Shown here: piece after piece, positions 9,741-17,569 of the stretch
Layout of the letters: each line of letters opens with the position of its first letter
Numbering within the stretch: the stretch's first letter is position 1
Source of the DNA: an uncultured Acidobacteriota bacterium
Lineage (GTDB): Bacteria > Acidobacteriota > Terriglobia > Acidiferrales > UBA7541
Direction: 5' to 3'
DNA length: 24,000 nt
NCBI GenBank assembly: GCA_963837855.1
Contig: CAWIPA010000006.1
Coordinates: 151,506 to 175,505 of the forward strand
Notes under the pieces: generated by a model
Database searches by the model: none
What the model saw: only the letters and a program-made list of their open reading frames with translations
What the model was told of the DNA's origin: nothing
Program-made: the position numbers and the translations under genes

Positions 9741-12700
9741 TCAAGACGAGCAAGGATGGGCGCCCAGGTTTCTTCCAGGGGGCAGGGGCGATGTAGAGGC
9801 TCGAGCCTTACCAGCGGGAGCGGGCGTCATGATTCGAGAGATTTGCCTGGCGCGAGGGCTGCCGGTGCGGCGAACGTGTTCGCGCAACGCGGCGCGCAGA
9901 CGGATTTCTTCGCCCGGCTCGAGCGCGCCCTCATTTGCCGGGCGAACGAATTCTTCACTGTAGGTCGCAGCGGTGGCGAATTCTTTTTGGATATACGCGA
10001 GGCCGCCGGTCATGCCGCTGGCCACGTTGATTCCGGTTGGGCCGAGGATAATTACCACTCCGGCGGTCATGTATTCGCAACCGTGCTGGCCCACGCCTTC
10101 GACGACCGCCAGCGCCCCGCTGTTGCGCACCGCGAATCGTTCGCCAGCCCGGCCTGCGATGTAAAGCTCGCCAGAGGTAGCGCCGTAGAGAGCGGTGTTC
10201 CCGGCCAGCAGATCGCCGCGCAGAGAGGCATCAGCGCCGGCTTCGATGGCGATCGTTCCGCCGCTTAGGCTTTTCGCGACGTAGTCGTTGGCTTCGCCGT
10301 GCAAGCGGAAAATTAGGCCATCGATCAGGAAGGCGCCGAAGCTTTGGCCGGCGGCGCCGTAGAAATCGAATTGCGTTGGCTCGCTGGCAGAGGCTGCGAA
10401 ATTTTTCCGGCGCAGGATGTGCCCGCTGAGATTTGCGCCGATGCTGCGATCCGAATTTTCGATCGGGAACGAGAGCGGATAACTCGAGTGCAGCTCGTAG
10501 CCCTGGATCAAGGCGGTTTCCAGCGAGCCTTTTGAGTTGGCGAGAATGGTTGCGGGATGCGCGGCTTCCGGGCGCGTTTCGGGCGAGGGCTCCAAGAGTT
10601 GCTCGACGGCGCGCGCGTTTGCCGCCGCGCGTGGGCGCAAACGCTCGACGGCGCCCTGCGCGTCGGCTAGCGAGCGCAGGCCCAACGCGGCCAGACGCTC
10701 GCGGACTTCGCCTGCCACGCCGCGGAAATAATTCATCGCCATTTCCGGATCGCCGGCGAAACGCGCGCGCAGATTTTCATCCTGCGTGGCGATGCCGACC
10801 GGGCAGGTGTTGAGATGACACTGCCGCGCCATGACGCAACCGATTGCGAGCAGCGATGAAGTGCCGAACCCGAATTCGTCGGCGCCGAGTAACGCAGCAA
10901 TTACGACGTCGCGCGCGAATTTGAAGCCGCCGTCCACGCGCAGGCTCACTCGATCGCGAAATCCCATCTGCAGCAGCGTAGTGTGCACTTTGCGCAGGCC
11001 CGCTTCCCACGGCAAGCCGGTATTTTTTATGGAGGTAAGCGGCGACGCCCCGGTGCCGCCATCGAAGCCTGAAATGGTGATCACTTGCGCGCCGGCTTTG
11101 GCCACTCCCGCGGCGATGATGCCGATGCCGGAATTAGAGACCAGCTTCACGCCGATTCTCGCCCGCGGATTTACGGCCCGCAGATCGTGAATGAGCTGCT
11201 CGAGATCTTCGATGCTGTAAATATCGTGATGCGGCGGCGGCGAAATCAGCGACATCCCCGGCACGGCGTGCCGCAGTCGCGCGATGAGCGCCGTAACTTT
11301 CTTCGCGGGAAGCTGGCCGCCCTCGCCAGGCTTCGAGCCTTGCGCCATTTTGATTTCAAGTTCGTCGGCGCGCACCAAATATTCCGTAGTCACCCCGAAG
11401 CGCGCAGAAGCCACTTGCTTCACGCGATTCGCGGCCTCAGGTTCCAGTTCGTAAACGTCAGGATCTTCGCCGCCTTCGCCAGTGTTGCTGCGCGCGCCCA
11501 TTCGATTCATCGCGATGGCGAGAGTGCGATGCGCTTCCGGGCTCAGCGCGCCAAGAGACATCGCTTGCGTGCTGAATCGGCGCAGGATTTCGGATTCGCT
11601 TTCCACCTCGTCGAGTGCGATGGCGTCGCTAGCGGCAAAATCCAGCAGGTCGCGGACGGCCACTGGCTCGCGCGATTCCGCCAGCGCTTCGTAGGCCCGA
11701 TAATTTTCCGGCGTCGGCGCGCCAATGTAGCGATGCATGCTGCGGACCAATGCTGGCGAACTCGAATGGCGCTCGCCGGCGTGGCGAAAACGGTAGAGGC
11801 CGTCGTCGCGCAAATCGTTGAGTGTGGCCGCCGGCGCGTAAGCGGCTTGATGGCGATCCAGGGCATCCTGCAATAAATCTTCGAGCGACTTGCCGCTCAG
11901 AACCGCGCCGGCATCTTCGAAAAAAGCTTCGCGGACTTCTTCGTCGAGCCCGACCAATTCGAAGAGCTGGCTATTGCGATAGCTGGCGATCGTGCAGATT
12001 CCCATGCGGGCCAGCACTTTGCGCAGCCCGGTTTCAACGGCGTCGCGGTAGCGCGCGCGTCCGCCGGCTTTTAGATTTCCGGCGAATTCGAGTGCCAGGT
12101 ACGGCAGCACCGCGCTGGCTCCCGCTGCGATCAGCATAGCCAGGTGATGCGTTTCGATGACTTGTCCGGTTTCGATGAGCAGCGGGATCTCGTAAGCGCC
12201 CGCGCGGACTTGAGATTTCCAGGCGGCGGCGACTCCGAGCAGAGCCGGTAACGCTGCTCTGCTCGGCCCTACTTTTCGATCGCTCAGCAGAATTATTTCC
12301 GGCGGATTCTCGCGCCACTCGCTGACTTCATCGCGAATTTTTTCTAGCGCGATTGCGGCTTCTTCTACTCCCGCGGCCGCTTCGTAGGTGATGTCGATGC
12401 GCTGCACTCGGCCTTGATGCTCAGACTCGAGCGCGGCTAGCTGGCTTTCGTCTAGCAGCGGTGAGGCAATTTTTGTGGATTTGCCGAGATGAACTTCGAG
12501 CGACATAACGTGGCCTTCGCGCAATGGATCGATCGGGGGATTTGTCACTTGGGCGAAGCGCTGCTTGCAATAATCCCAGAGTGGTCGGCGCATGGCGGAC
12601 ATGAATGCTGGAGGGGCGTCGTCGCCCATGCTCCAGACGGATTCTTTGGCTTCCGTCGCTAATGATTCGAAGAGCAGCCGGAATTGATCTTCGGTCCAAC

Positions 12701-14056
12701 CGAGCGCGGCTGCCGCTTTGCGTGGTTCGTTTGTTGGTTTCGATAAAACTGTGACTCGTTTTAGGCGCTTGGTGGCTGGCTCATTTTCTTCGCGATTGGG
12801 AGTCGCCAGCAACTTTGCGATTTCTTTTTCGGTTAGAACTTTCTTGCCTTGCGTGTCGACTACCAGCATTTCGCCGGGGCCCAGTCGTTGGCGGGCCTGC
12901 ACAGCCAGAAGTGGCTGTGCGACTGGGGCGTGATCCACCAGGCCGGCTTCAGAACCTAGAATTATCAGGCCGTCGGCGGTGATGGTGTAACGCAGCGGGC
13001 GCAAGCCGTTGCGATCCAGTTTTGCGCCCACATAGCGGCCGTCGGTGAAGACTAGCGCCGCTGGGCCGTCCCAGGGTTCTTGCGCAATGGATTCTCGGCG
13101 CAGAAAACGCCGCACCGCGGGATCTAGATTCGCGATTGGTTTCCCAGGCTGGCGGGACCATTCGCAACATGGCCGCCGGGATTTTGTACCCTTGGTGCAG
13201 CGACATTTCCAGCGCGTTATCGAAGCTCGCGGAATCGCTGACTCGCTCTTCGAGAGTGTGGAACCAATCAGCGGCTGCCAATTTTTTGCGCGTGGATTCT
13301 TCGCGAGCGCTCGTCCAGCGGCGATTGGCGCTGATGGTGTTGATTTCACCGTTGTGCGCGGCGTGGCGGAAAGGCTGCGCCATCGTCCAGCTGGGCTGCG
13401 TGTTGGTGGAATAGCGCTGATGGAAGATAGCGAAATTGGCGGCAAATTCCGGGTGGCTTAGGTCCCGGTAGAATTGGCGGAATTGCCGCGGGGTGAGCAG
13501 ACCTTTGTAGACGATGGTGCGCGTCGAAAGCGAGCAGAAGTAGGTGCCCGGCTCGCCTTCAAATTCCACTTGCTTGCGGAAGAAATACAGCGCGCGCTCC
13601 AGGTCGGCGACCGGTTGCATCGCGCTGAAAAAACATTGGCGGACGCGTGGTTGCGTAGAAAGCGCGCGGGCGCCCAGCGTGGCAGTTTCGATCGGCACTT
13701 CGCGCCAGCCCAAACATTCCAGATTATTTTTTCGCGCCAGCGATTCGATGGCTTGCCGGGCTTCCGTTTCTTTTTGCGGCGGAAGAAAAACCATGCCCAC
13801 CGCGAAAATTTCCGGCAGAGCGATATTTTCTTCCTGAGCGCGATTGCGAAAGAAATCTTTAGGGATCGGCAGGAGCAGGCCCGCACCGTCGCCGCTCATG
13901 CCGTCGGAATCGACGCCGCCTCGGTGCGAAAGGCGCTCCAGCGCGTTCAAAGCCAGTTGGATAATTTCGCGCGAGGATTCGCCATGTAGCGCGGGCGATG
14001 AAGCCCACCCCGCAGGCATCATGATCCAATCCCGGATTGAGGGCGGCTTCGCGCAT
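9741..14056 (-). pseudogene. gltB: Glutamate synthase large subunit, interrupted by at least two one-base frameshifts (near 13990 and near 13128)
   Basis: Three co-linear pieces. (1) 14056 to about 13990: MREAALNPGLDHDACGVGFIA, the Ntn amidotransferase Cys motif. (2) About 13990 to 13128: LHGESSREIIQLALNALERLSHRGG ... HQRYSTNT ... NGEINT ... VPPAWETNRE. (3) About 13128 to 9741: LDPAVRRFLRRESIAQEPWDGPAA, the central and FMN/Fe-S domains (...LNTCPVGIATQD...), and the C-terminal beta-helix domain (GTIAIEAG...LYGATSGELYIAGRAGERFAVRNSGA). No gltD follows. Confidence 0.9.
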
Positions 14057-14215
14057 GTTACTTAACTAACCTAGCGGTCCGCGGTAAGTACAATCGAAAG
14101 AGTCGATGCGTCGCATCACTTTTTAGGGGTCGAGGCGATCGTCCAGCATTCTGGACCCTCCGAGAGGGCTGGCGAGCCTATTGGAAACGGCGAAGAAAAC
14201 TGCGAGGGATTACGG

Positions 14216-14286
14216 AATTTCAAATTTCAGATCGGGAAACCGCAAATGCAGGTCCCTCACCCGTAGAGGCGGGTTCCGTATGACAG
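14216..14286 (-). repeat. Repeat family D, inverted copy
   Basis: ggaatttcaaatttcagatc...gcaaatgcaggtccctcacccgtagaggcgggttccgtatgacag is the reverse complement of the ctgtcat[c/a]c[c/g]gaaccc...ggtgaggga[t/c]ctgcatttgc family. Confidence 0.7.
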
Positions 14287-14367
14287 TTTGAAACAGCGTC
14301 GAAATTTCGCCTGCGGAAATAATTCCGGCAACTTACCTGATTTGCGGGAAAAATATGGCCGAACGGC

Positions 14368-14394
14368 GGGAGGGTCTAGAATTCAGACCCTCCC
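14368..14394 (-). terminator. Stem-loop 8 nt downstream of the rsr stop (possible terminator)
   Basis: GGGAGGGTCT-agaattc-AGACCCTCCC forms a perfect 10-bp stem. A T-run follows only after about 14 nt on the minus strand, so it is not a textbook intrinsic terminator. Confidence 0.45.
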
Positions 14395-14401
14395 CCTACG
14401 G

Positions 14402-15704
14402 TTATTGCTCCATCGCGCGGATGTAGTGCGTGATTGCTTCGCTCCAGCCGTCGATGTGCGTCCAGGGCCCGTACCCTACGCCGTTTTTGTTGCTGGCGGT
14501 GTTGATCATGTAGCCGCGGGCGCGGGGGCCCGGCACTTGATCGTGGGACTGCTCGTCGGTAATTACGATAATGCGATCGTATTTCTCCTTGATCTTCCCG
14601 AGCGCGCGGCCTAGATAAGTTCCGCCGTGCGGTCTGGCTGGCATCTAGCGCGTCGCGCAGTGCGAAGCCTCGCCGCGGTGGAACCTGGACCAGATCGTTC
14701 GAGAACGAGTACACGATGGCCTTCTCGCAGATCTCGCGCAGCAGAATGGCCAGACCGTAAGCCGCGTCCGTGCGGAGCATTTCCGAACGGCGCGAGAGTG
14801 CGGCGGTCATGCTGCCGGAAACGTCCACGAGTAGAGCCGTGCGGCCCGGCAGCTTCTCCTGCTCCTTGAGCGAGCTGAGCATGGCGCGCTCCAGCGCCTC
14901 TTCCAACTGCGGGGCGTGGCGTGCCGCCGCGATGAAGCGAAACGGCAGGACGCGGCCCGTTTTCATTTGCTCGAGGCCTGTGAGAATTAGCTGCTCGTCC
15001 ACTCCGGCTTGCTGCATGTTGCGCAGGTTGCGGAGCAGCGCGAGTGCGCCGAGCTTGCGCTCGCGGAGCAAACGCTCCCAGGCTTCGTGTTTGTCGGCGC
15101 CAGACGAAAGCGCTACCTCCCAGGTGTCGGGAGTTTCTAGCCTCCCTTCGATGAGGCGCTTCCAGAGCGCGTTCTGCTCGGCGTCACGCGGCTTGGCGTG
15201 GCAGAGGAACAGGACGTCGCGCAGGCGAATGGGCCCGGAGCGATCGTATTTCGCGAGCTGATACTCGTCGAATTTGCGGAAGGCTTGGGCCAGCCCCTTT
15301 TTCACCTGTGCGGAGAGCGGGACTTTGCCTTCCTTCCAATAAATGGCCACAAATTCGGCCAGCTCATCGGCGCGCTGGATGACTTGCGCCAGCGTGCGAG
15401 CGACCGCCTCGCGATGCGTTTTGTGACGCGCCATTTCGCGGACGAGCAGTAACGGAGCGTGACGCAGCTTCATCTGCTCGCGGGCTTCGACGGCCAGCGC
15501 GGCCACGGCCTCGGCTTTCACCTTGGGCACGAGTTCCTGGATGCGCCCGCCGATTTCCACGCCGTCTTCGTAGAACTGATCCTCCCAGAGCAGGCAGGCG
15601 AGGACCGAGCGGCGAAGCTGCAGCTCGACGGAAATATTTCGAGCAGGAGCGCCTTCGTGCGTGCGCGGGCCGTAGGGAATTTTTAGAATGTTGAGTCGCG
15701 CCAT
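14402..15704 (-). pseudogene. rsr: Ro60 orthologue Rsr (TROVE domain plus vWA domain), interrupted by a one-base frameshift near 14625-14645
   Basis: TROVE-type N-terminus (PRTHEGAPA, LLWEDQFYEDG, helical repeats). The vWA MIDAS motif LLVDVSGSM is in the 15704 frame. The continuation RPHGGTYLGRALGKIKEKYDRIIVITDEQSHD...IDGWSE lies in ORF 14402-14644. After the junction the 15704 frame turns into Arg-rich nonsense. AGGAGG (15718-15713) sits 8 nt before ATG 15704. Confidence 0.85.
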
Positions 15705-15735
15705 TTTGGTGCCCTCCTTTTTGCTGTTGTGATAA

Positions 15736-15884
15736 TTGCCGGGGAATAATTGGTGACGGATCCAGCTTGCGCTGGCGGATGCTCTGCCATTGAGCTACGC
15801 GACGCTGCACTGCAGCAGCGCCACGGCAGGATTCGAACCTGCGTCTTTCCGAGCCGAAGTAACCGTGACCTGCGCCACCGGCAA
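15736..15884 (-). ncRNA. Y-RNA-like module 1 (YrlA-like, with a permuted tRNA-like domain)
   Basis: Stem1 UUGCCGG (15884-15878) pairs with CCGGCAA (15742-15736). 5' loop UGGCGCA. Stem2 GGUCACGG (15870-15863) pairs with CCGUCACC (15759-15752) with one C-C mismatch. 3' loop AAUUAUUCC. The apex holds a T arm GCAGG-UUCGAAU-CCUGC (15842-15826), a capped 11-bp acceptor-like helix (15825-15798), a D arm GCUC-AAUGGCA-GAGC (15795-15781) and a hairpin CCAGC-GCAA-GCUGG (15775-15762). Confidence 0.75.
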
Positions 15885-15909
15885 ACTTTTTGATGCTTGT
15901 TGCGATCGA

Positions 15910-15979
15910 TCGCCGGGGAAAAATCGAGAGCGGTGCTTGCTTCGTCACAGGAAGTAACCGCGCTCTTCGCCACCGGCGA
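15910..15979 (-). ncRNA. Y-RNA-like module 2 (minimal)
   Basis: Stem1 UCGCCGG (15979-15973) pairs with CCGGCGA (15916-15910). 5' loop UGGCGAA. Stem2 GAGCGCGG (15965-15958) pairs with CCGCUCUC (15933-15926) with one C-U mismatch. UUACUUC follows stem2. Small apical hairpin CUUC-CUGUGAC-GAAG. 3' loop GAUUUUUCC. Confidence 0.6.
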
Positions 15980-15991
15980 AGCTTTTCAACA

Positions 15992-16315
15992 TCAATCGGG
16001 GTCGTTCAATACGAGTTTGAACTCGTGCTCGTTGTCGGCAGCATCCTCCACGGCCGCGAACCCCGTGGTGCGCTTGCCTCCGTGCGGCACAACGACCCAG
16101 GCGATCTTTTCCATCTCGAGGAGCGTTTGGCGCTGGGCCTCGACGTGGGACGAACATTCGCGCACGTGGAACGGCACGCGATGTTCCGGCCACGTGGCGC
16201 GGCAGATTACCAGCTCTTCGCTTTCGCGGAAGCCGCGTTCGACGTGCGCGTGCGTGCACGTGTAGCAGAGCGACGCGCGCTGCGACTGCGGATCGGTTTT
16301 GAAATTGACGCCCAT
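15992..16315 (-). CDS. Small Cys/His-rich protein of unknown function (107 aa), embedded in the Y-RNA-like array
   Basis: ATG 16315 has AAAGG 8 nt upstream (the ORF track starts at GTG 16324). Composition is balanced and protein-like: MGVNFKTDPQSQRASLCYTCTHAHVERGF...VICRATWPEHRVPFHVRECSSHVEAQ...KIAWVVVPHGGK. The overlapping 287-aa plus-strand ORF is Arg-rich antisense noise. I do not recognise the family. Confidence 0.55.
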   Translation of the reverse strand: MGVNFKTDPQSQRASLCYTCTHAHVERGFRESEELVICRATWPEHRVPFHVRECSSHVEAQRQTLLEMEKIAWVVVPHGGKRTTGFAAVEDAADNEHEFKLVLNDPD

Positions 16316-16392
16316 GCGCGTCACCTTTCTAGAAGCGCGCTCAAATGCGCTTCGGAATGCGCGCTTGCTGTTGCCGCGCGCGGGTTAAATCA

Positions 16393-16556
16393 TTCGCCGG
16401 GGAACAAGCGCCCAGGGTATGTCTCAAGGCGGTATCCAGTGGGTACCTTTTGCTTCGGGGCTACGCCCCCGTCCCCACTGTTCCGTTCCTTGGCAGGGTT
16501 TCCGGCCCTGCGCGACGTTGGCGGAGGAAGTAACCCTCGACTACGCCACCGGCGAA
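16393..16556 (-). ncRNA. Y-RNA-like module 3 (large apical domain)
   Basis: Stem1 UUCGCCGG (16556-16549) pairs with CCGGCGAA (16400-16393). 5' loop UGGCGUA. Stem2 GUCGAGGG (16541-16534) pairs with CCCUGGGC (16417-16410) with one G-G mismatch and one G-U pair. UUACUUC follows stem2. 3' loop GCUUGUUCC. The apex has hairpins GCAGGG-CCGGAAA-CCCUGC, CAGUGGG...CCCACUG (16480-16437) and GGGGC-GUA-GCCCC. Confidence 0.6.
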
Positions 16557-16563
16557 AATTTTG

Positions 16564-16672
16564 GCCAGGGAAAAATCGGCGCGGTGAAAAACGGGGACTC
16601 GAACCCCATCGCTCATCGCTTCCGCGACTTGCGACTTCTCCATGCGAAGTATCCGCGTCGTGCGCCACTGGC
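16564..16672 (-). ncRNA. Y-RNA-like module 4 (with T-arm-like hairpin)
   Basis: Stem1 GCCAG (16672-16668) pairs with CUGGC (16568-16564). 5' loop UGGCGCA. Stem2 CGACGCGG (16660-16653) pairs with CCGCGCCG (16584-16577) with one A-C mismatch. AUACUUC follows stem2. 3' loop AUUUUUCC. The apex has ACUUC-GCAUGGA-GAAGU (16650-16634) and AUGGGG-UUCGAGU-CCCCGU (16609-16591). Confidence 0.6.
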
Positions 16673-16678
16673 ACATTT

Positions 16679-16750
16679 TCCCGGGGGAATAACCGTTCGC
16701 GGTCGTGCATGCTTAACAGGCGATGGAACCGCGAACTACGCCACCCAGGA
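16679..16750 (-). ncRNA. Y-RNA-like module 5 (minimal)
   Basis: Stem1 UCCUGGG (16750-16744) pairs with CCCGGGA (16685-16679), including one U-G pair. 5' loop UGGCGUA. Stem2 GUUCGCGG (16736-16729) pairs perfectly with CCGCGAAC (16702-16695). 3' loop GGUUAUUCC. It ends only 6 nt from module 4. Confidence 0.55.
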
Positions 16751-16909
16751 TGAAAAACTATTCAGGGCAAACGGTTGAGATTGCGGGATTTACTGCCGTG
16801 GGGATCCGGTTAAGGTTCGGCCACAATCCCGGAGCAGCGTCAGAGCCGCTTGCCTGACTTCCGAATTGTGTTTGACTTGGTGCATTCCGAACTTTCTCCA
16901 GAGTTCGGG

Positions 16910-16938
16910 ATAGTAAAGTAGGTTGATGATTTATGCAA
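16910..16938 (-). promoter_or_regulatory. Candidate sigma70-type promoter for the Y-RNA-like array and rsr unit
   Basis: On the minus strand, TTGCAT (16938-16933), a 17-nt spacer, then TACTAT (16915-16910). It lies in the only AT-rich stretch upstream of module 5. This is sequence resemblance only. Confidence 0.3.
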
Positions 16939-17017
16939 CAACAAAATGCGAGGTTTTTAAATTATTTTTCGGGGATGACGAAAAAAGTCGACGGCTTTGG
17001 ATGACTGTCGAGTAGGC

Positions 17018-17080
17018 CGTCGTAGGGGCCGGGGTTTACGACCGGCCCGGTGTAGCCTTGGGTTTGCGCCCCTGACGTTT
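17018..17080 (+). repeat. Repeat family B
   Basis: gccgtcgtaggggccggggtttacgaccggcccggtgtagccttgggtttgcgcccctgacgttt is nearly identical (3 differences) to 21268-21331. It contains the hairpin GGCCGG-ggtttacga-CCGGCC. Confidence 0.8.
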
Positions 17081-17136
17081 CGGTAGCAAGCTCTAACGCA
17101 GCCTCTTCAGACTCTGTGTGAGTACTCGGACGCCCT

Positions 17137-17212
17137 GTCAGGGCACGGTTTTAACCGTGCCGTAAATGCCGCAAATTCAATACGGCTTCAGCCGCTGAGG
17201 TTTTGTTTTTTC
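17137..17212 (+). repeat. Repeat family A, full copy
   Basis: gtcaGGGCACGGTtttaACCGTGCCgtaaatgccgcaaattcaatacggcttcagccgctgaggttttgtttttt. See 9281-9356. Confidence 0.75.
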
Positions 17213-17569
17213 AGGTGGGAGCCTCCTGCTTTAGCAGGGGGAGGAGCGCTTCAGCGCTCCGAAAACGCTGGCGATTTTTAATGCGCTTGAGCGCCTGGCT
17301 TCCACAGCGCCGTTCGCGGCGCGACCCGTAGTATTCGAGGTGTCGAGGGCACTCCAATCCGTTCAATCTATCGAGTGAATTGTGATCGGTAGTTGTTCGT
17401 TGCGGCGGACACAGCCAGCAGTGGCTGTGCTACTGGAACCGGCATCGAAGCCCGCGCGCAATTACGGCGCATGGTGCAGCCGGCGTCCAGCATGCTGGAC
17501 GATGCGTATTTGCGTTGTGTGGACTATTGCGCGGGCTTATGATGCGCCGCTTGGATGGGAGGATTGACT

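What the first reader, a model, noticed from the sequence alone, without database searches (positions are those of the whole stretch)
15776..15852. The rsr-proximal module carries a circularly permuted, end-capped tRNA mimic
Reading the minus strand 5' to 3', the elements are as follows. CGGA (15851-15848) comes first, then AAGAC, which has variable-loop length. Next is a T arm GCAGG-UUCGAAU-CCUGC (15842-15826). An 11-bp acceptor-like helix follows: CGUGGCGCUGC, loop UGCAGU, GCAGCGUCGCG (15825-15798, two G-U pairs). Then come UA (the U8/A9 positions) and a D arm GCUC-AAUGGCA-GAGC (15795-15781) with the GG dinucleotide. Finally an A, and UCCG (15779-15776), which pairs back to CGGA. All tRNA elements are therefore present, in the order anticodon-stem 3' strand, T arm, acceptor, D arm, anticodon-stem 5' strand. 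The acceptor end is closed by a hexaloop, so there is no CCA end, and the anticodon stem opens into the Y-RNA stem. This matches the published description of YrlA-type bacterial Y RNAs as tRNA mimics whose tRNA-like domain is joined to the Ro-binding stem. It strongly supports the Y-RNA interpretation of the whole array.
Basis: partly seen in the sequence, partly recalled or inferred. Interest (0 to 1): 0.7.

Follow-up and report, generated by a model that had tools for sequence, protein, structure and literature searches.

The report
tRNA-mimic Y RNA beside rsr
This is a bacterial Y RNA of the already described YrlA type, whose core folds like a tRNA opened at the anticodon end and sealed at the acceptor end; it lies just upstream of the Ro60 (rsr) gene of an acidobacterium and is a real but ordinary, previously unannotated example.

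Summary
On the minus strand, 15851-15776 reads CGGA, AAGAC, a T arm, an 11-bp helix capped by a hexaloop, UA, a D arm, A, UCCG. The 77 nt fold that way on their own (z = -3.3).

The segment is the core of a 145-nt module (15882-15738) that ends 33 nt before a TROVE/Ro60 gene. The same module occurs upstream of rsr, on the same strand, in 60 of 73 related Acidobacteriota loci.

- **Covariation:** 95% of cells pair, against 35-53% in slid controls.
- **Compensatory changes:** 25 of 34 pairs change on both sides, including all four pairs of the CGGA/UCCG stem.
- **Levitt tertiary pair:** G15:C48 in 55 modules and A15:U48 in 32, of 97.
- **Un-permutation:** ARAGORN then of 97 modules a tRNA, including the window's; 3 of 97 are called in native order.

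Rfam's YrlA model matches end to end (E = 1e-5), but at 36 bits it is below its curated cut-off of 69.

Local peculiarities are the long capped helix, an extra GNRA hairpin, an A15·C48 mismatch and a 5' motif one base off consensus. Expression and Ro60 binding are inferred, not shown.

The parts
15738..15882 (-). Whole Y-RNA module E (145 nt), YrlA-type. It has an outer stem, an inner stem, a junction and a tRNA-like core.
   Evidence: Clade covariance model R1 scores it 112.2 bits over the full model. Rfam YrlA scores 36.4 bits, E = 1e-5. Fold shown.
15875..15882 (-). Outer Y stem, 5' strand, GCCGGUGG. It pairs with CCCCGGC at 15744-15738.
   Evidence: Helix 1: 99% of cells pair across 97 modules and 3 pairs change on both sides.
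15870..15876 (-). GGCGCAG, at the position of the published Ro60-contact motif GNCGAAN0-1G (one base off).
   Evidence: Motif census: the clade has GGUGAAG in 65, GGCGAAG in 18 and GGCGCAG in 1 of 97 modules. Motif definition from Chen 2014.
15862..15870 (-). Inner Y stem, 5' strand, GGUCACGGU. It pairs with 15760-15752, with one C·C mismatch in this copy.
   Evidence: Helix 2: 92% of cells pair and 6 of 8 pairs change on both sides. Present in the MFE fold.
15856..15862 (-). Conserved UUACUUC. It contains the YUAY motif (UUAC) at the start of the junction.
   Evidence: These columns are invariant or nearly so in 97 modules. UUAC occurs in 60 and UUCC in 25 of 97. YUAY, and the UA kink in the crystal structure, are described.
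15848..15851 (-). CGGA, the anticodon-stem-like helix, tRNA 3'-strand equivalent.
   Evidence: Helix 3: 4 of 4 pairs change on both sides (for example CGGA/UCCG, CCGA/UCGG, CGAU/AUCG).
15843..15847 (-). AAGAC, a 5-nt variable loop. G46 is invariant. C48 (15843) faces A15.
   Evidence: G at position 46 in 97 of 97 modules. Levitt pair table.
15826..15842 (-). T arm GCAGG-UUCGAAU-CCUGC. The U55 equivalent is 15836.
   Evidence: Helix 4: 99% of cells pair. The T-loop U54, U55, C56 and A58 are near-invariant. The Rfam tRNA model matches just this arm, at 16 bits.
15798..15825 (-). Acceptor-like helix: 11 bp (2 G-U pairs) capped by the hexaloop UGCAGU. No CCA and no free ends.
   Evidence: The six junction-proximal pairs all change on both sides across 97 modules. 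This hairpin is 28 nt long, the second longest of 97; 6-8 bp is typical.
15796..15797 (-). UA, the equivalents of U8 and A9.
   Evidence: U in 96 of 97 and A in 90 of 97 modules.
15781..15795 (-). D arm GCUC-AAUGGCA-GAGC. A14 is 15791, A15 is 15790, G18 and G19 are 15788-15787, A21 is 15785.
   Evidence: Helix 6: 95% of cells pair. A14 in 97 of 97, G18 in 93, A21 in 96. The arm is identical to the Rfam YrlA consensus.
15776..15780 (-). A (position 26) followed by UCCG, the anticodon-stem-like helix, tRNA 5'-strand equivalent.
   Evidence: Partner of 15851-15848 in helix 3.
15762..15775 (-). Extra hairpin CCAGC-GCAA-GCUGG (GNRA loop) in the 3' junction strand. It is clade-specific.
   Evidence: Found in only 8 of 97 modules, the closest relatives. 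It is compensatory in L001 (GUGGC/GCCAC) and L002 (GCAGC/GCUGC). Present in the MFE fold.
15752..15760 (-). Inner Y stem, 3' strand, UCCGUCACC.
   Evidence: Helix 2.
15738..15744 (-). Outer Y stem, 3' strand, CCCCGGC.
   Evidence: Helix 1.
14376..15704 (-). rsr: a TROVE/Ro60-family protein of 442 aa, the presumed protein partner.
   Evidence: Pfam TROVE, E = 1.4e-19. The best solved relative is phage phiLo phiRo60, 9KOP/9L5Y, E = 8e-23.
15912..15977 (-). Module D: a 66-nt simple hairpin Y RNA (YrlB-like) with the exact GGCGAAG motif.
   Evidence: R1 scores it 49.8 bits. Fold.
16396..16553 (-). Module C: 158 nt, same frame, with a different conserved core.
   Evidence: R1 scores it 36.5 bits. 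In a 20-locus alignment, 22 of 38 pairs are compensatory.
16564..16672 (-). Module B: 109 nt, same frame, with a T arm only (GGGGUUCGAGUCCCC).
   Evidence: R1 scores it 29.2 bits. Fold.
16681..16748 (-). Module A: 68 nt, with a degenerate frame (CCUGGGUGGCG...).
   Evidence: R1 scores it 36.6 bits with filters off.

Best explanation
The segment is the effector domain of a YrlA-type bacterial Y RNA.

Shown here:
- A 145-nt module (15882-15738, minus strand) has its two ends paired into a two-part stem.
- That stem carries a four-way tRNA core: a 4-bp anticodon-stem-like helix, a 5-nt variable loop, a canonical T arm, an acceptor-like helix sealed by a loop, U8A9, and a canonical D arm.
- All the nucleotides needed for the tRNA elbow and the base triples are present.
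- This fold is under selection across an acidobacterial clade.
- It is always encoded upstream of the Ro60 gene (rsr) on the same strand.

Inferred from the family (D. radiodurans, S. Typhimurium, M. smegmatis, phage phiLo):
- The module is transcribed together with the other four modules and rsr, and is then cut out.
- Rsr binds the terminal stem around GGCGCAG and stabilises the RNA.
- The L-shaped tRNA-like domain is modified by tRNA enzymes, with TruB pseudouridine at 15836 likely.
- The domain acts as the docking or tethering surface that couples the Ro60 ring to another factor. That factor is PNPase in the studied species and is unknown here.
- The acceptor-like helix is an uninterrupted 11-bp hairpin with no CCA. 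It should therefore stay closed rather than be opened by RNase P, as the 7-bp M. smegmatis version is.
For: - **Sequence and fold:**
- **Rfam YrlA:** full-model match, E = 1e-5, with T arm, acceptor hairpin and D arm in register. Relatives score 44-56 bits with E down to 7e-10.
- **Independent consensus fold:** RNAalifold on a MAFFT alignment gives all six helices, 14 of 34 pairs compensatory. On that alignment 95.5% of cells pair against 35-53% when slid.
- **97 modules from 61 loci:** 95.2% of cells pair against 37-48% when slid, 25 of 34 pairs change on both sides, and 0 of 500 shuffles reach the observed values.
- **Tertiary signature:** Levitt 15:48 is G:C in 55 and A:U in 32 of 97. U8, A14, G18, A21, G46, U54, U55 and A58 are near-invariant.
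- **Un-permutation:** ARAGORN of 97 modules a tRNA, including the window's copy as a 75-nt cloverleaf. In native order it of 97, and 0 in the control (the printed denominator of 98 includes a parsing artefact).
- **Genomic linkage:** all of the 300 listed of 305 model hits are on the rsr strand. All 97 tRNA-like modules lie upstream of rsr, and 60 of 73 loci have at least one.
- **Partner protein:** it is TROVE/Ro60 family. Its closest solved relative is phiRo60, which binds upstream-encoded Y-like RNAs and PNPase.
- **Published definition and biochemistry of YrlA:**
Against: - There are no expression, end-mapping, Rsr-binding or modification data for this organism, so function is by analogy.
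- The Rfam YrlA score (36.4) is below the curated gathering score (69), and the same holds for all relatives tested.
- The 5' motif deviates by one base from GNCGAAN0-1G.
- This copy has A15·C48 instead of a canonical Levitt pair.
- The 4-bp stem is not in the MFE fold of the full module.
- The TROVE protein is divergent: 24.6 bits against NCBIfam Rsr, whose cut-off is 900.
- No rtcB or PNPase gene is nearby, so the effector is unknown.
- The sigma-70 consensus scan found no promoter.
Confidence: 0.88

Rival explanations
1. The module is a cis-acting part of the rsr leader rather than a stand-alone Y RNA. On this view the tRNA-like fold is a processing signal (tRNA-style punctuation by RNase P or Z that frees the rsr mRNA), or an Rsr-binding site for autoregulation.
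For: The module ends 33 nt before the rsr start, next to the ribosome-binding site. No terminator-like site lies between the modules and rsr on the minus strand, so co-transcription is likely. M. smegmatis YrlA is cleaved by RNase P, and Y RNAs there are processed from one precursor.
Against: The distance from the nearest tRNA-like module to rsr varies from 19 to 1464 nt, with a median of 134. Such modules also lie upstream of other modules and of the small ORF, so the position relative to the ribosome-binding site is not conserved. The acceptor-like helix here is a closed 11-bp hairpin, which is a poor RNase P substrate by the published 7-bp criterion. The closed-end stem frame is that of released Y RNAs. 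The two roles are not mutually exclusive.
Confidence: 0.08
2. It is a circularly permuted tRNA gene, or a tRNA pseudogene, that is processed into a functional or once-functional tRNA.
For: After un-permutation it is a near-perfect cloverleaf. Permuted tRNA genes exist in some algae (my own knowledge, not tested here).
Against: There is no anticodon loop: the 4-bp stem opens into the Y-RNA junction in all 97 modules. There is no CCA or discriminator context. ARAGORN and the Rfam tRNA model do not call it. It is always embedded in the Ro60-binding frame beside rsr.
Confidence: 0.02
3. It is a chance resemblance, or a structurally neutral repeat element that happens to contain tRNA-like hairpins.
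For: The frame GCCGGUGGCG...UUCCCCGGC is repeated five times in about 1 kb, as a repeat family would be.
Against: Covariation in every variable helix, and in a tertiary pair, shows selection on the fold. The strand and position are locked to rsr in 80 loci. The cores differ between modules while the frame stays constant.
Confidence: 0.01

Closest known systems
Salmonella Typhimurium YrlA (Rfam RF02553; crystal structure PDB 6CU1)
   Same: The element order is the same: stem, variable loop, T arm, loop-capped acceptor-like stem, UA, D arm, stem. The D arm (GCUC A..GG.A GAGC) and the T-loop are the same, as are the U8-A14-A21, A9-U12-A23 and C13-G22-G46 triple nucleotides. The YUAY motif is present. 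The RNA is encoded next to rsr on the same strand.
   Different: - The acceptor-like helix is 11 bp with a hexaloop, against 6 bp with a 3-nt loop.
- There is an extra GNRA hairpin in the 3' junction.
- The RNA lies upstream of rsr, not in an rsr-yrlBA-rtcBA operon.
- The 5' motif is GGCGCAG.
- This copy has A15·C48.
- It scores only 36 bits on the Rfam model.
Mycobacterium smegmatis YrlA and YrlB
   Same: The RNAs are encoded upstream of rsr and several Y RNAs come from one precursor. YrlA is about 147 nt, close to the 145 nt here. A second Y RNA has a T arm only, like window module B.
   Different: The M. smegmatis acceptor-like stem is 7 bp and is opened by RNase P, followed by CCA addition. 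The 11-bp closed helix here is not expected to be cleaved (inference).
Deinococcus radiodurans Yrn1 and Yrn2
   Same: Several small RNAs are encoded upstream of rsr, with T-arm mimicry, and the RNA acts as an Rsr-PNPase tether.
   Different: Yrn1 lacks a full D arm and has an anticodon-like arm. The window's module E has the complete YrlA-type core.
Thermus phage phiLo phiRo60 with Yrl1 and Yrl2 (PDB 9KOP, 9L5Y)
   Same: It is the closest solved relative of the window's TROVE protein (E = 8e-23). Its Y-like RNAs are encoded just upstream of the gene and carry a CGAA-type motif in a stem-bulge-stem.
   Different: No tRNA-like domain is reported for Yrl1 or Yrl2: the term occurs 0 times in that paper. 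It is a phage system, not a cellular one.
Other tRNA mimics: tmRNA, the TYMV 3' tRNA-like structure, and permuted tRNA genes of red algae
   Same: They share the L-shaped fold with a D-loop/T-loop elbow. The permuted gene order is shared with the algal genes and with two-piece tmRNAs (my own knowledge).
   Different: Those have a free CCA end and are aminoacylated or matured into tRNAs. This RNA has a sealed acceptor end and no anticodon loop.

Membership tests
YrlA-type bacterial Y RNA (Chen et al. 2014) | Encoded within 4 kb of a Ro60/TROVE gene, on the same strand | tested here: met
   The module's 3' end is at 15738 and the rsr ATG is at 15704, both on the minus strand. The same holds in 60 of 73 related loci.
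YrlA-type bacterial Y RNA (Chen et al. 2014) | Near-invariant T stem-loop with a tRNA T-loop | tested here: met
   GCAGG-UUCGAAU-CCUGC. It aligns to the model's T arm. 99% of cells pair, and U54, U55, C56 and A58 are conserved.
YrlA-type bacterial Y RNA (Chen et al. 2014) | Near-invariant D stem-loop with a GG dinucleotide | tested here: met
   GCUC-AAUGGCA-GAGC, identical to the Rfam consensus stem. A14, G18 and A21 are conserved.
YrlA-type bacterial Y RNA (Chen et al. 2014) | Variable-sequence hairpin between the T and D arms (acceptor-like stem), closed by a loop, with no CCA | tested here: met
   An 11-bp helix with the loop UGCAGU. All six modelled pairs covary. Long versions are already reported in cyanobacteria.
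YrlA-type bacterial Y RNA (Chen et al. 2014) | Levitt 15:48 tertiary pair maintained by compensatory change (G:C or A:U) | tested here: inconclusive
   At clade level it is met: G:C in 55 and A:U in 32 of 97 modules. The window copy itself is A15·C48, as are 3 others.
YrlA-type bacterial Y RNA (Chen et al. 2014) | GNCGAAN0-1G motif near the 5' end (presumed Ro60 contact) | tested here: not met
   Module E has GGCGCAG, one base off. The strict motif is met in 18 of 97 clade modules, and the clade's main form is GGUGAAG. Window module D has the exact GGCGAAG. The motif is short and degenerate, and the partner protein is itself divergent.
YrlA-type bacterial Y RNA (Chen et al. 2014) | Conserved YUAY at the start of the variable or junction region | tested here: met
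   UUAC at 15862-15859. UUAC occurs in 60 and UUCC in 25 of 97 modules.
YrlA-type bacterial Y RNA (Chen et al. 2014) | Bound by Rsr in vivo, carrying tRNA modifications (pseudouridine 55, dihydrouridine) | not testable with these tools
   This needs RNA immunoprecipitation and CMC or alkali primer extension, as.
Rfam RF02553 (YrlA), curated membership | Bit score at or above the gathering score of 69 | tested here: not met
   The window scores 36.4 bits (E = 1e-5). Seven relatives score 43.6-55.7, and none of 15 loci reaches 69. The window's loss comes mainly from a 16-nt insertion in the acceptor-like hairpin, the extra hairpin and the divergent stem (alignment).
tRNA (Rfam RF00005 / ARAGORN) | Contiguous cloverleaf with an anticodon loop and free acceptor ends | tested here: not met
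   ARAGORN makes 0 calls in the window. The Rfam tRNA model matches only the T arm, at 16.1 bits and E = 8.6. A cloverleaf is called only after artificial un-permutation with an added anticodon loop.
Ro60/Rsr protein (the partner that makes an RNA a 'Y RNA') | TROVE HEAT-repeat ring plus a vWA domain | tested here: met
   Pfam TROVE at 71 bits, with vWA_Ro60 weak at 21 bits. The PDB phiRo60 match is E = 8e-23 over residues 11-322. It is far below the NCBIfam Rsr equivalog cut-off (24.6 against 900), so it belongs to a divergent subfamily.

The most novel reading that the evidence does not exclude
The tRNA mimic may be one member of a programmed repertoire. In this acidobacterial clade a single Ro60-binding frame (GCCGGUGG...UUACUUC...UUCCCCGGC) is reused in arrays: five modules in this window and several per locus elsewhere. 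The frame carries at least three different conserved effector domains:
- the tRNA-like core;
- a T-arm-only core;
- a roughly 100-nt core with no Rfam family, in which 22 of 38 pairs are compensatory.

On this reading one Ro60 ring would be directed to several different partners, some of them unknown. Within the tRNA-like module, the clade-specific GNRA hairpin and the 11-bp capped helix would be extra docking surfaces.
Probability: 0.4. Interest if true: 0.5.

Novelty: new member of a known kind. Interest (0 to 1): 0.25.

Why it matters
It adds little conceptually, because YrlA RNAs are already described as circularly permuted, end-capped tRNA mimics. It still has three practical values.

Annotation pipelines therefore leave these loci blank.

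2. The 97-module alignment gives independent comparative support for the tRNA tertiary fold of YrlA, including clean 15:48 covariation.

3. The loci display an unusually rich set of Y-RNA modules on one frame. This makes the clade a good place to ask what the effector domains of bacterial Y RNAs bind, which is still an open question for YrlA.

Tried and rejected
- **Rfam at gathering score and ARAGORN on the window:** nothing found. This is explained by insertions and by the permuted order, not by absence of the element.
- **Sigma-70 promoter scan of 14200-17400:** 0 sites. The by-eye candidate TTGCAT-N17-TACTAT near 16940-16908 fails the scan's criteria, so the transcription start remains unknown.
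- **Chen et al. supplementary tables, searched for Acidobacteria:** not held. A literature search for Y RNA, Rsr and Acidobacteria gave 0 papers. The 2020 Annual Review is not held. I therefore cannot say whether cultured Acidobacteria were in the 2014 list.
- **Small ORF in the array (16315-15992):**
  - No Pfam or NCBIfam family.
  - The AlphaFold model had pLDDT 51 and was discarded, so no fold search was run.
  - Only sub-threshold zinc-finger and eL34 hints.
  - The idea that it is an obligate Ro60-RNP subunit was rejected. Paralogues picked from the protein side lie away from any TROVE gene and have no Y modules nearby.
- **A GNRA hairpin docking onto the long capped helix:** the two features co-occur, but only in close relatives, so they are not independent. 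The geometry of an L-shaped tRNA also makes contact unlikely. I did not pursue this.

Full report
**1. Observation**

- CGGA, 15851-15848.
- AAGAC, 15847-15843.
- T arm GCAGG-UUCGAAU-CCUGC, 15842-15826.
- An 11-bp helix, CGUGGCGCUGC / UGCAGU / GCAGCGUCGCG, 15825-15798, with two G-U pairs.
- UA, 15797-15796.
- D arm GCUC-AAUGGCA-GAGC, 15795-15781.
- A, 15780.
- UCCG, 15779-15776.

Folded alone, the 77 nt adopt exactly this structure. The energy is -36.7 kcal/mol, the structure takes 64% of the ensemble, z = -3.29, and 2 of 200 dinucleotide shuffles fold as well.

In the full module (15883-15738, 146 nt folded), the MFE fold keeps the T arm, the capped helix, the D arm, an additional hairpin and the terminal stems. 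It does not keep the 4-bp CGGA/UCCG helix. That helix therefore needed comparative support.

**2. Context**

The segment is the core of a 145-nt module (15882-15738). The module's ends pair as GCCGGUGG.../...CCCCGGC, and it stops 33 nt before an ORF (15704-14376, minus strand).
- The ORF's product has a TROVE domain (Pfam E = 1.4e-19) and a weak Ro60 vWA match.
- Its closest solved relative is phiRo60 of Thermus phage phiLo (9KOP/9L5Y, E = 8e-23). That protein is a ring-shaped Ro60 homologue that binds Y-like RNAs encoded just upstream of its gene and recruits host PNPase.
- It is far from the NCBIfam Rsr equivalog (24.6 bits against a cut-off of 900), so it belongs to a divergent Ro60 subfamily.
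- The named homologues are Candidatus Acidiferrales and Terriglobales MAGs.

With a clade-specific covariance model and filters off, the intergenic region holds five modules that share the frame, all on the minus strand:
- A, 16681-16748.
- B, 16564-16672.
- C, 16396-16553.
- D, 15912-15977.
- E, 15738-15882.

Only E has both T and D arms.

**3. Comparative test**

Eighty related rsr loci were fetched. A MAFFT alignment of 13 rsr-proximal modules was given to RNAalifold without any structure. It returned all six helices: the outer Y stem, the inner Y stem, the 4-bp anticodon-like stem, the T arm, the acceptor-like stem and the D arm. Of the 34 pairs, 14 were compensatory. On that same alignment 95.5% of cells pair, against 35-53% when the 3' partners are slid by 1-3 columns.

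A covariance model built from this alignment found 305 matches in the 80 loci plus the window. Every one of the 300 listed is on the rsr strand.

The 97 matches with E ≤ 1e-15 carry the full tRNA-like core. On these:
- 95.2% of cells pair, against 37-48% when slid.
- 25 of 34 pairs change on both sides.
- The covariation score is 0.303, against at most 0.094 when slid.
- No shuffle out of 500 reaches any observed measure.

The 97-sequence alignment was fitted to the model, which favours the structure. The MAFFT-only result shows that the signal does not depend on that.

**4. tRNA-specific evidence**

- The nucleotides that build the tRNA core are near-invariant across the 97 modules:
  - U8 in 96.
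  - A9 in 90.
  - A14 in 97.
  - G18 in 93.
  - A21 in 96.
  - G46 in 97.
  - U54 in 95.
  - U55 in 97.
  - C56 in 92.
  - A58 in 97.
- The Levitt tertiary pair covaries: G15:C48 in 55 modules and A15:U48 in 32. Chen et al. used this same compensatory pattern as evidence for the YrlA fold. The window's own copy is A15·C48, one of four such exceptions.
I cut each module in the capping loop, kept 7 bp of acceptor, and closed the other end with one artificial pair and a 7-nt loop.
  - ARAGORN then of 97 a full-length tRNA, including the window's copy as a canonical 75-nt cloverleaf.
  - In native order it of 97.
  - With the artificial arm appended to the native order it (the printed denominator of 98 includes a parser artefact).
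- On the native window, ARAGORN finds nothing. The Rfam tRNA model sees only the T arm, at 16 bits.

**5. Identity**

Rfam's YrlA model (RF02553) matches 15752-15867(-) over its whole length, with the T arm, acceptor hairpin, GUAGCUCA...GG.AGAGC and closing stem in register (36.4 bits, E = 1e-5 for the 2.5-kb search). That is below the gathering score of 69, so the default search reports nothing. Seven relatives score 43.6-55.7 bits, with E down to 7e-10, and none of 15 loci reaches 69.

The published definition fits. It specifies near-invariant T and D stem-loops, a variable hairpin between them that corresponds to the acceptor stem, a YUAY motif, tertiary pairs, and a location within 4 kb of rsr on the same strand.

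**6. Differences from described YrlAs**

- The capped helix is 11 bp with a hexaloop. Its 28-nt hairpin is the second longest of the 97, where 6-8 bp is typical.
- A 14-nt hairpin with a GNRA loop (CCAGC-GCAA-GCUGG, 15775-15762) sits between the 4-bp stem and the inner Y stem. The 4-bp stem therefore enters a three-way junction rather than running straight into the Y stem. The hairpin occurs in only the 8 closest relatives and is compensatory in L001 and L002.
- The presumed Ro60-contact motif is GGCGCAG, not GNCGAAN0-1G. The strict motif is met in only 18 of 97 clade modules, and GGUGAAG dominates with 65 of 97.
- This copy has A15·C48.

None of these changes the architecture. They explain the low Rfam score.

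**7. Mechanism**

Shown:
- A conserved, selected L-shaped tRNA-type fold.
- The fold is embedded in a closed-end stem.
- It is genetically locked to a Ro60 gene.

Inferred from studied species:
- The array and rsr are probably co-transcribed. No terminator-like site on the minus strand separates them, apart from the module B T arm followed by a U run.
- The modules are excised, and Rsr binds and stabilises the terminal stem.
- TruB and Dus enzymes modify the T and D loops.
- The tRNA-like domain is the surface that tethers the Ro60 ring to another factor. That factor is PNPase in D. radiodurans, Salmonella and phage phiLo. For YrlA's conserved D and T stems the ligand is still unknown.
[quoted passage not shown] The uninterrupted 11-bp hairpin should therefore remain sealed.

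**8. Rivals**

- A purely cis-acting leader or processing signal is possible but less likely. The distance of tRNA-like modules to rsr varies from 19 to 1464 nt, and they can lie upstream of other modules.
- A permuted tRNA gene is excluded by the absence of any anticodon loop or CCA in all 97 modules.
- Chance or a neutral repeat is excluded by the covariation.

**9. Verdict**

The element is a new, unannotated member of a known kind, a YrlA-type Y RNA, in an acidobacterial lineage that falls below Rfam's threshold. The finding itself is of low interest. The surrounding multi-class Y-RNA array is of moderate interest.

Noticed in passing
window 15738-16748 (-): There are five Y-RNA-like modules sharing one frame (GCCGGUGGCG...UUACUUC...UUCCCCGGC) in about 1 kb upstream of rsr. 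In the 80 related loci the clade model gives 305 hits. All 300 listed are on the rsr strand, with several modules per locus and 1-3 of them tRNA-like.
   Followed up: partly
window 16396-16553 (-); L003:1708-1868, L060:1970-2129 and 17 others: Module C belongs to a conserved class of about 160 nt. It has the same Y frame but a different core: a hairpin GCAGGG-N7-CCCUGC and a long stem enclosing the invariant GACGGGGGCGUAGCCCCGAA. Of 38 pairs, 22 are compensatory. It has no Rfam family. It is possibly an undescribed Y-RNA effector domain.
   Followed up: partly
window 16564-16672 (-): Module B carries a T arm (GGGGUUCGAGUCCCC followed by U-rich sequence) but no D arm or acceptor-like hairpin. 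This resembles D. radiodurans Yrn1 and M. smegmatis YrlB. In many loci a T-only module of about 107 nt is directly followed by a module of about 160 nt.
   Followed up: no
window 15992-16315 (-): A 107-aa ORF lies inside the array, between modules C and D. It has four invariant Cys (C17, C20, C38, C54) and no Pfam or NCBIfam family. It is present in 39 of 80 rsr loci, with modules on both sides in 25 of 38. The family has at least 533 members. Paralogues elsewhere are not next to TROVE genes or Y modules. The AlphaFold model was unusable, with pLDDT 51.
   Followed up: partly
window 14376-15704 (-): The TROVE protein (442 aa) is much closer to phage phiLo phiRo60 (E = 8e-23) than to classical Ro60 (E = 0.008). 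It scores only 24.6 bits on NCBIfam Rsr, whose cut-off is 900. This divergent Ro60 subfamily coincides with the altered RNA motif (GGUGAAG or GGCGNAG).
   Followed up: partly
window 9741-14022 (-): The glutamate synthase large subunit downstream of rsr is split into two overlapping ORFs (12949-14022 and 9741-13445), with the GATase_2 domain broken at about profile position 310. This is either a frameshift or a sequencing error.
   Followed up: no
L009:5232-5687, L014:5383-5844, L015:5382-5842, L048:5382-5845 (opposite strand): In several related loci a cluster made up only of class II tRNAs (Leu-Tyr-Ser-Ser-Leu) lies just downstream of rsr on the opposite strand. L019 has a 13-tRNA array upstream.
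   Followed up: no
L003:1202-1247 (+): An Acido-Lenti-1 RNA (RF01687, 62 bits, above its gathering score) lies upstream of that locus's Y-RNA array.
   Followed up: no
window 17140-17259 (+) and 15918-15997 (-): There are two weak Rfam hits. One is HgcC-like (26 bits, E = 0.0023), in a run of hairpins between the array and the divergent esterase gene. The other is Fibrobacter-1 on module D (E = 0.074). Its consensus GG.UACUUUCC resembles the clade's GGUUACUUC, which hints that this orphan motif might be Y-RNA-related.
   Followed up: no
window 15762-15825 (-); L001, L002, L003, L005, L006, L010: The extra GNRA hairpin and an unusually long capped acceptor-like helix (hairpin of 24 nt or more) co-occur in the same close relatives. 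These sequences are phylogenetically close, so the co-occurrence may simply be inherited.
   Followed up: no
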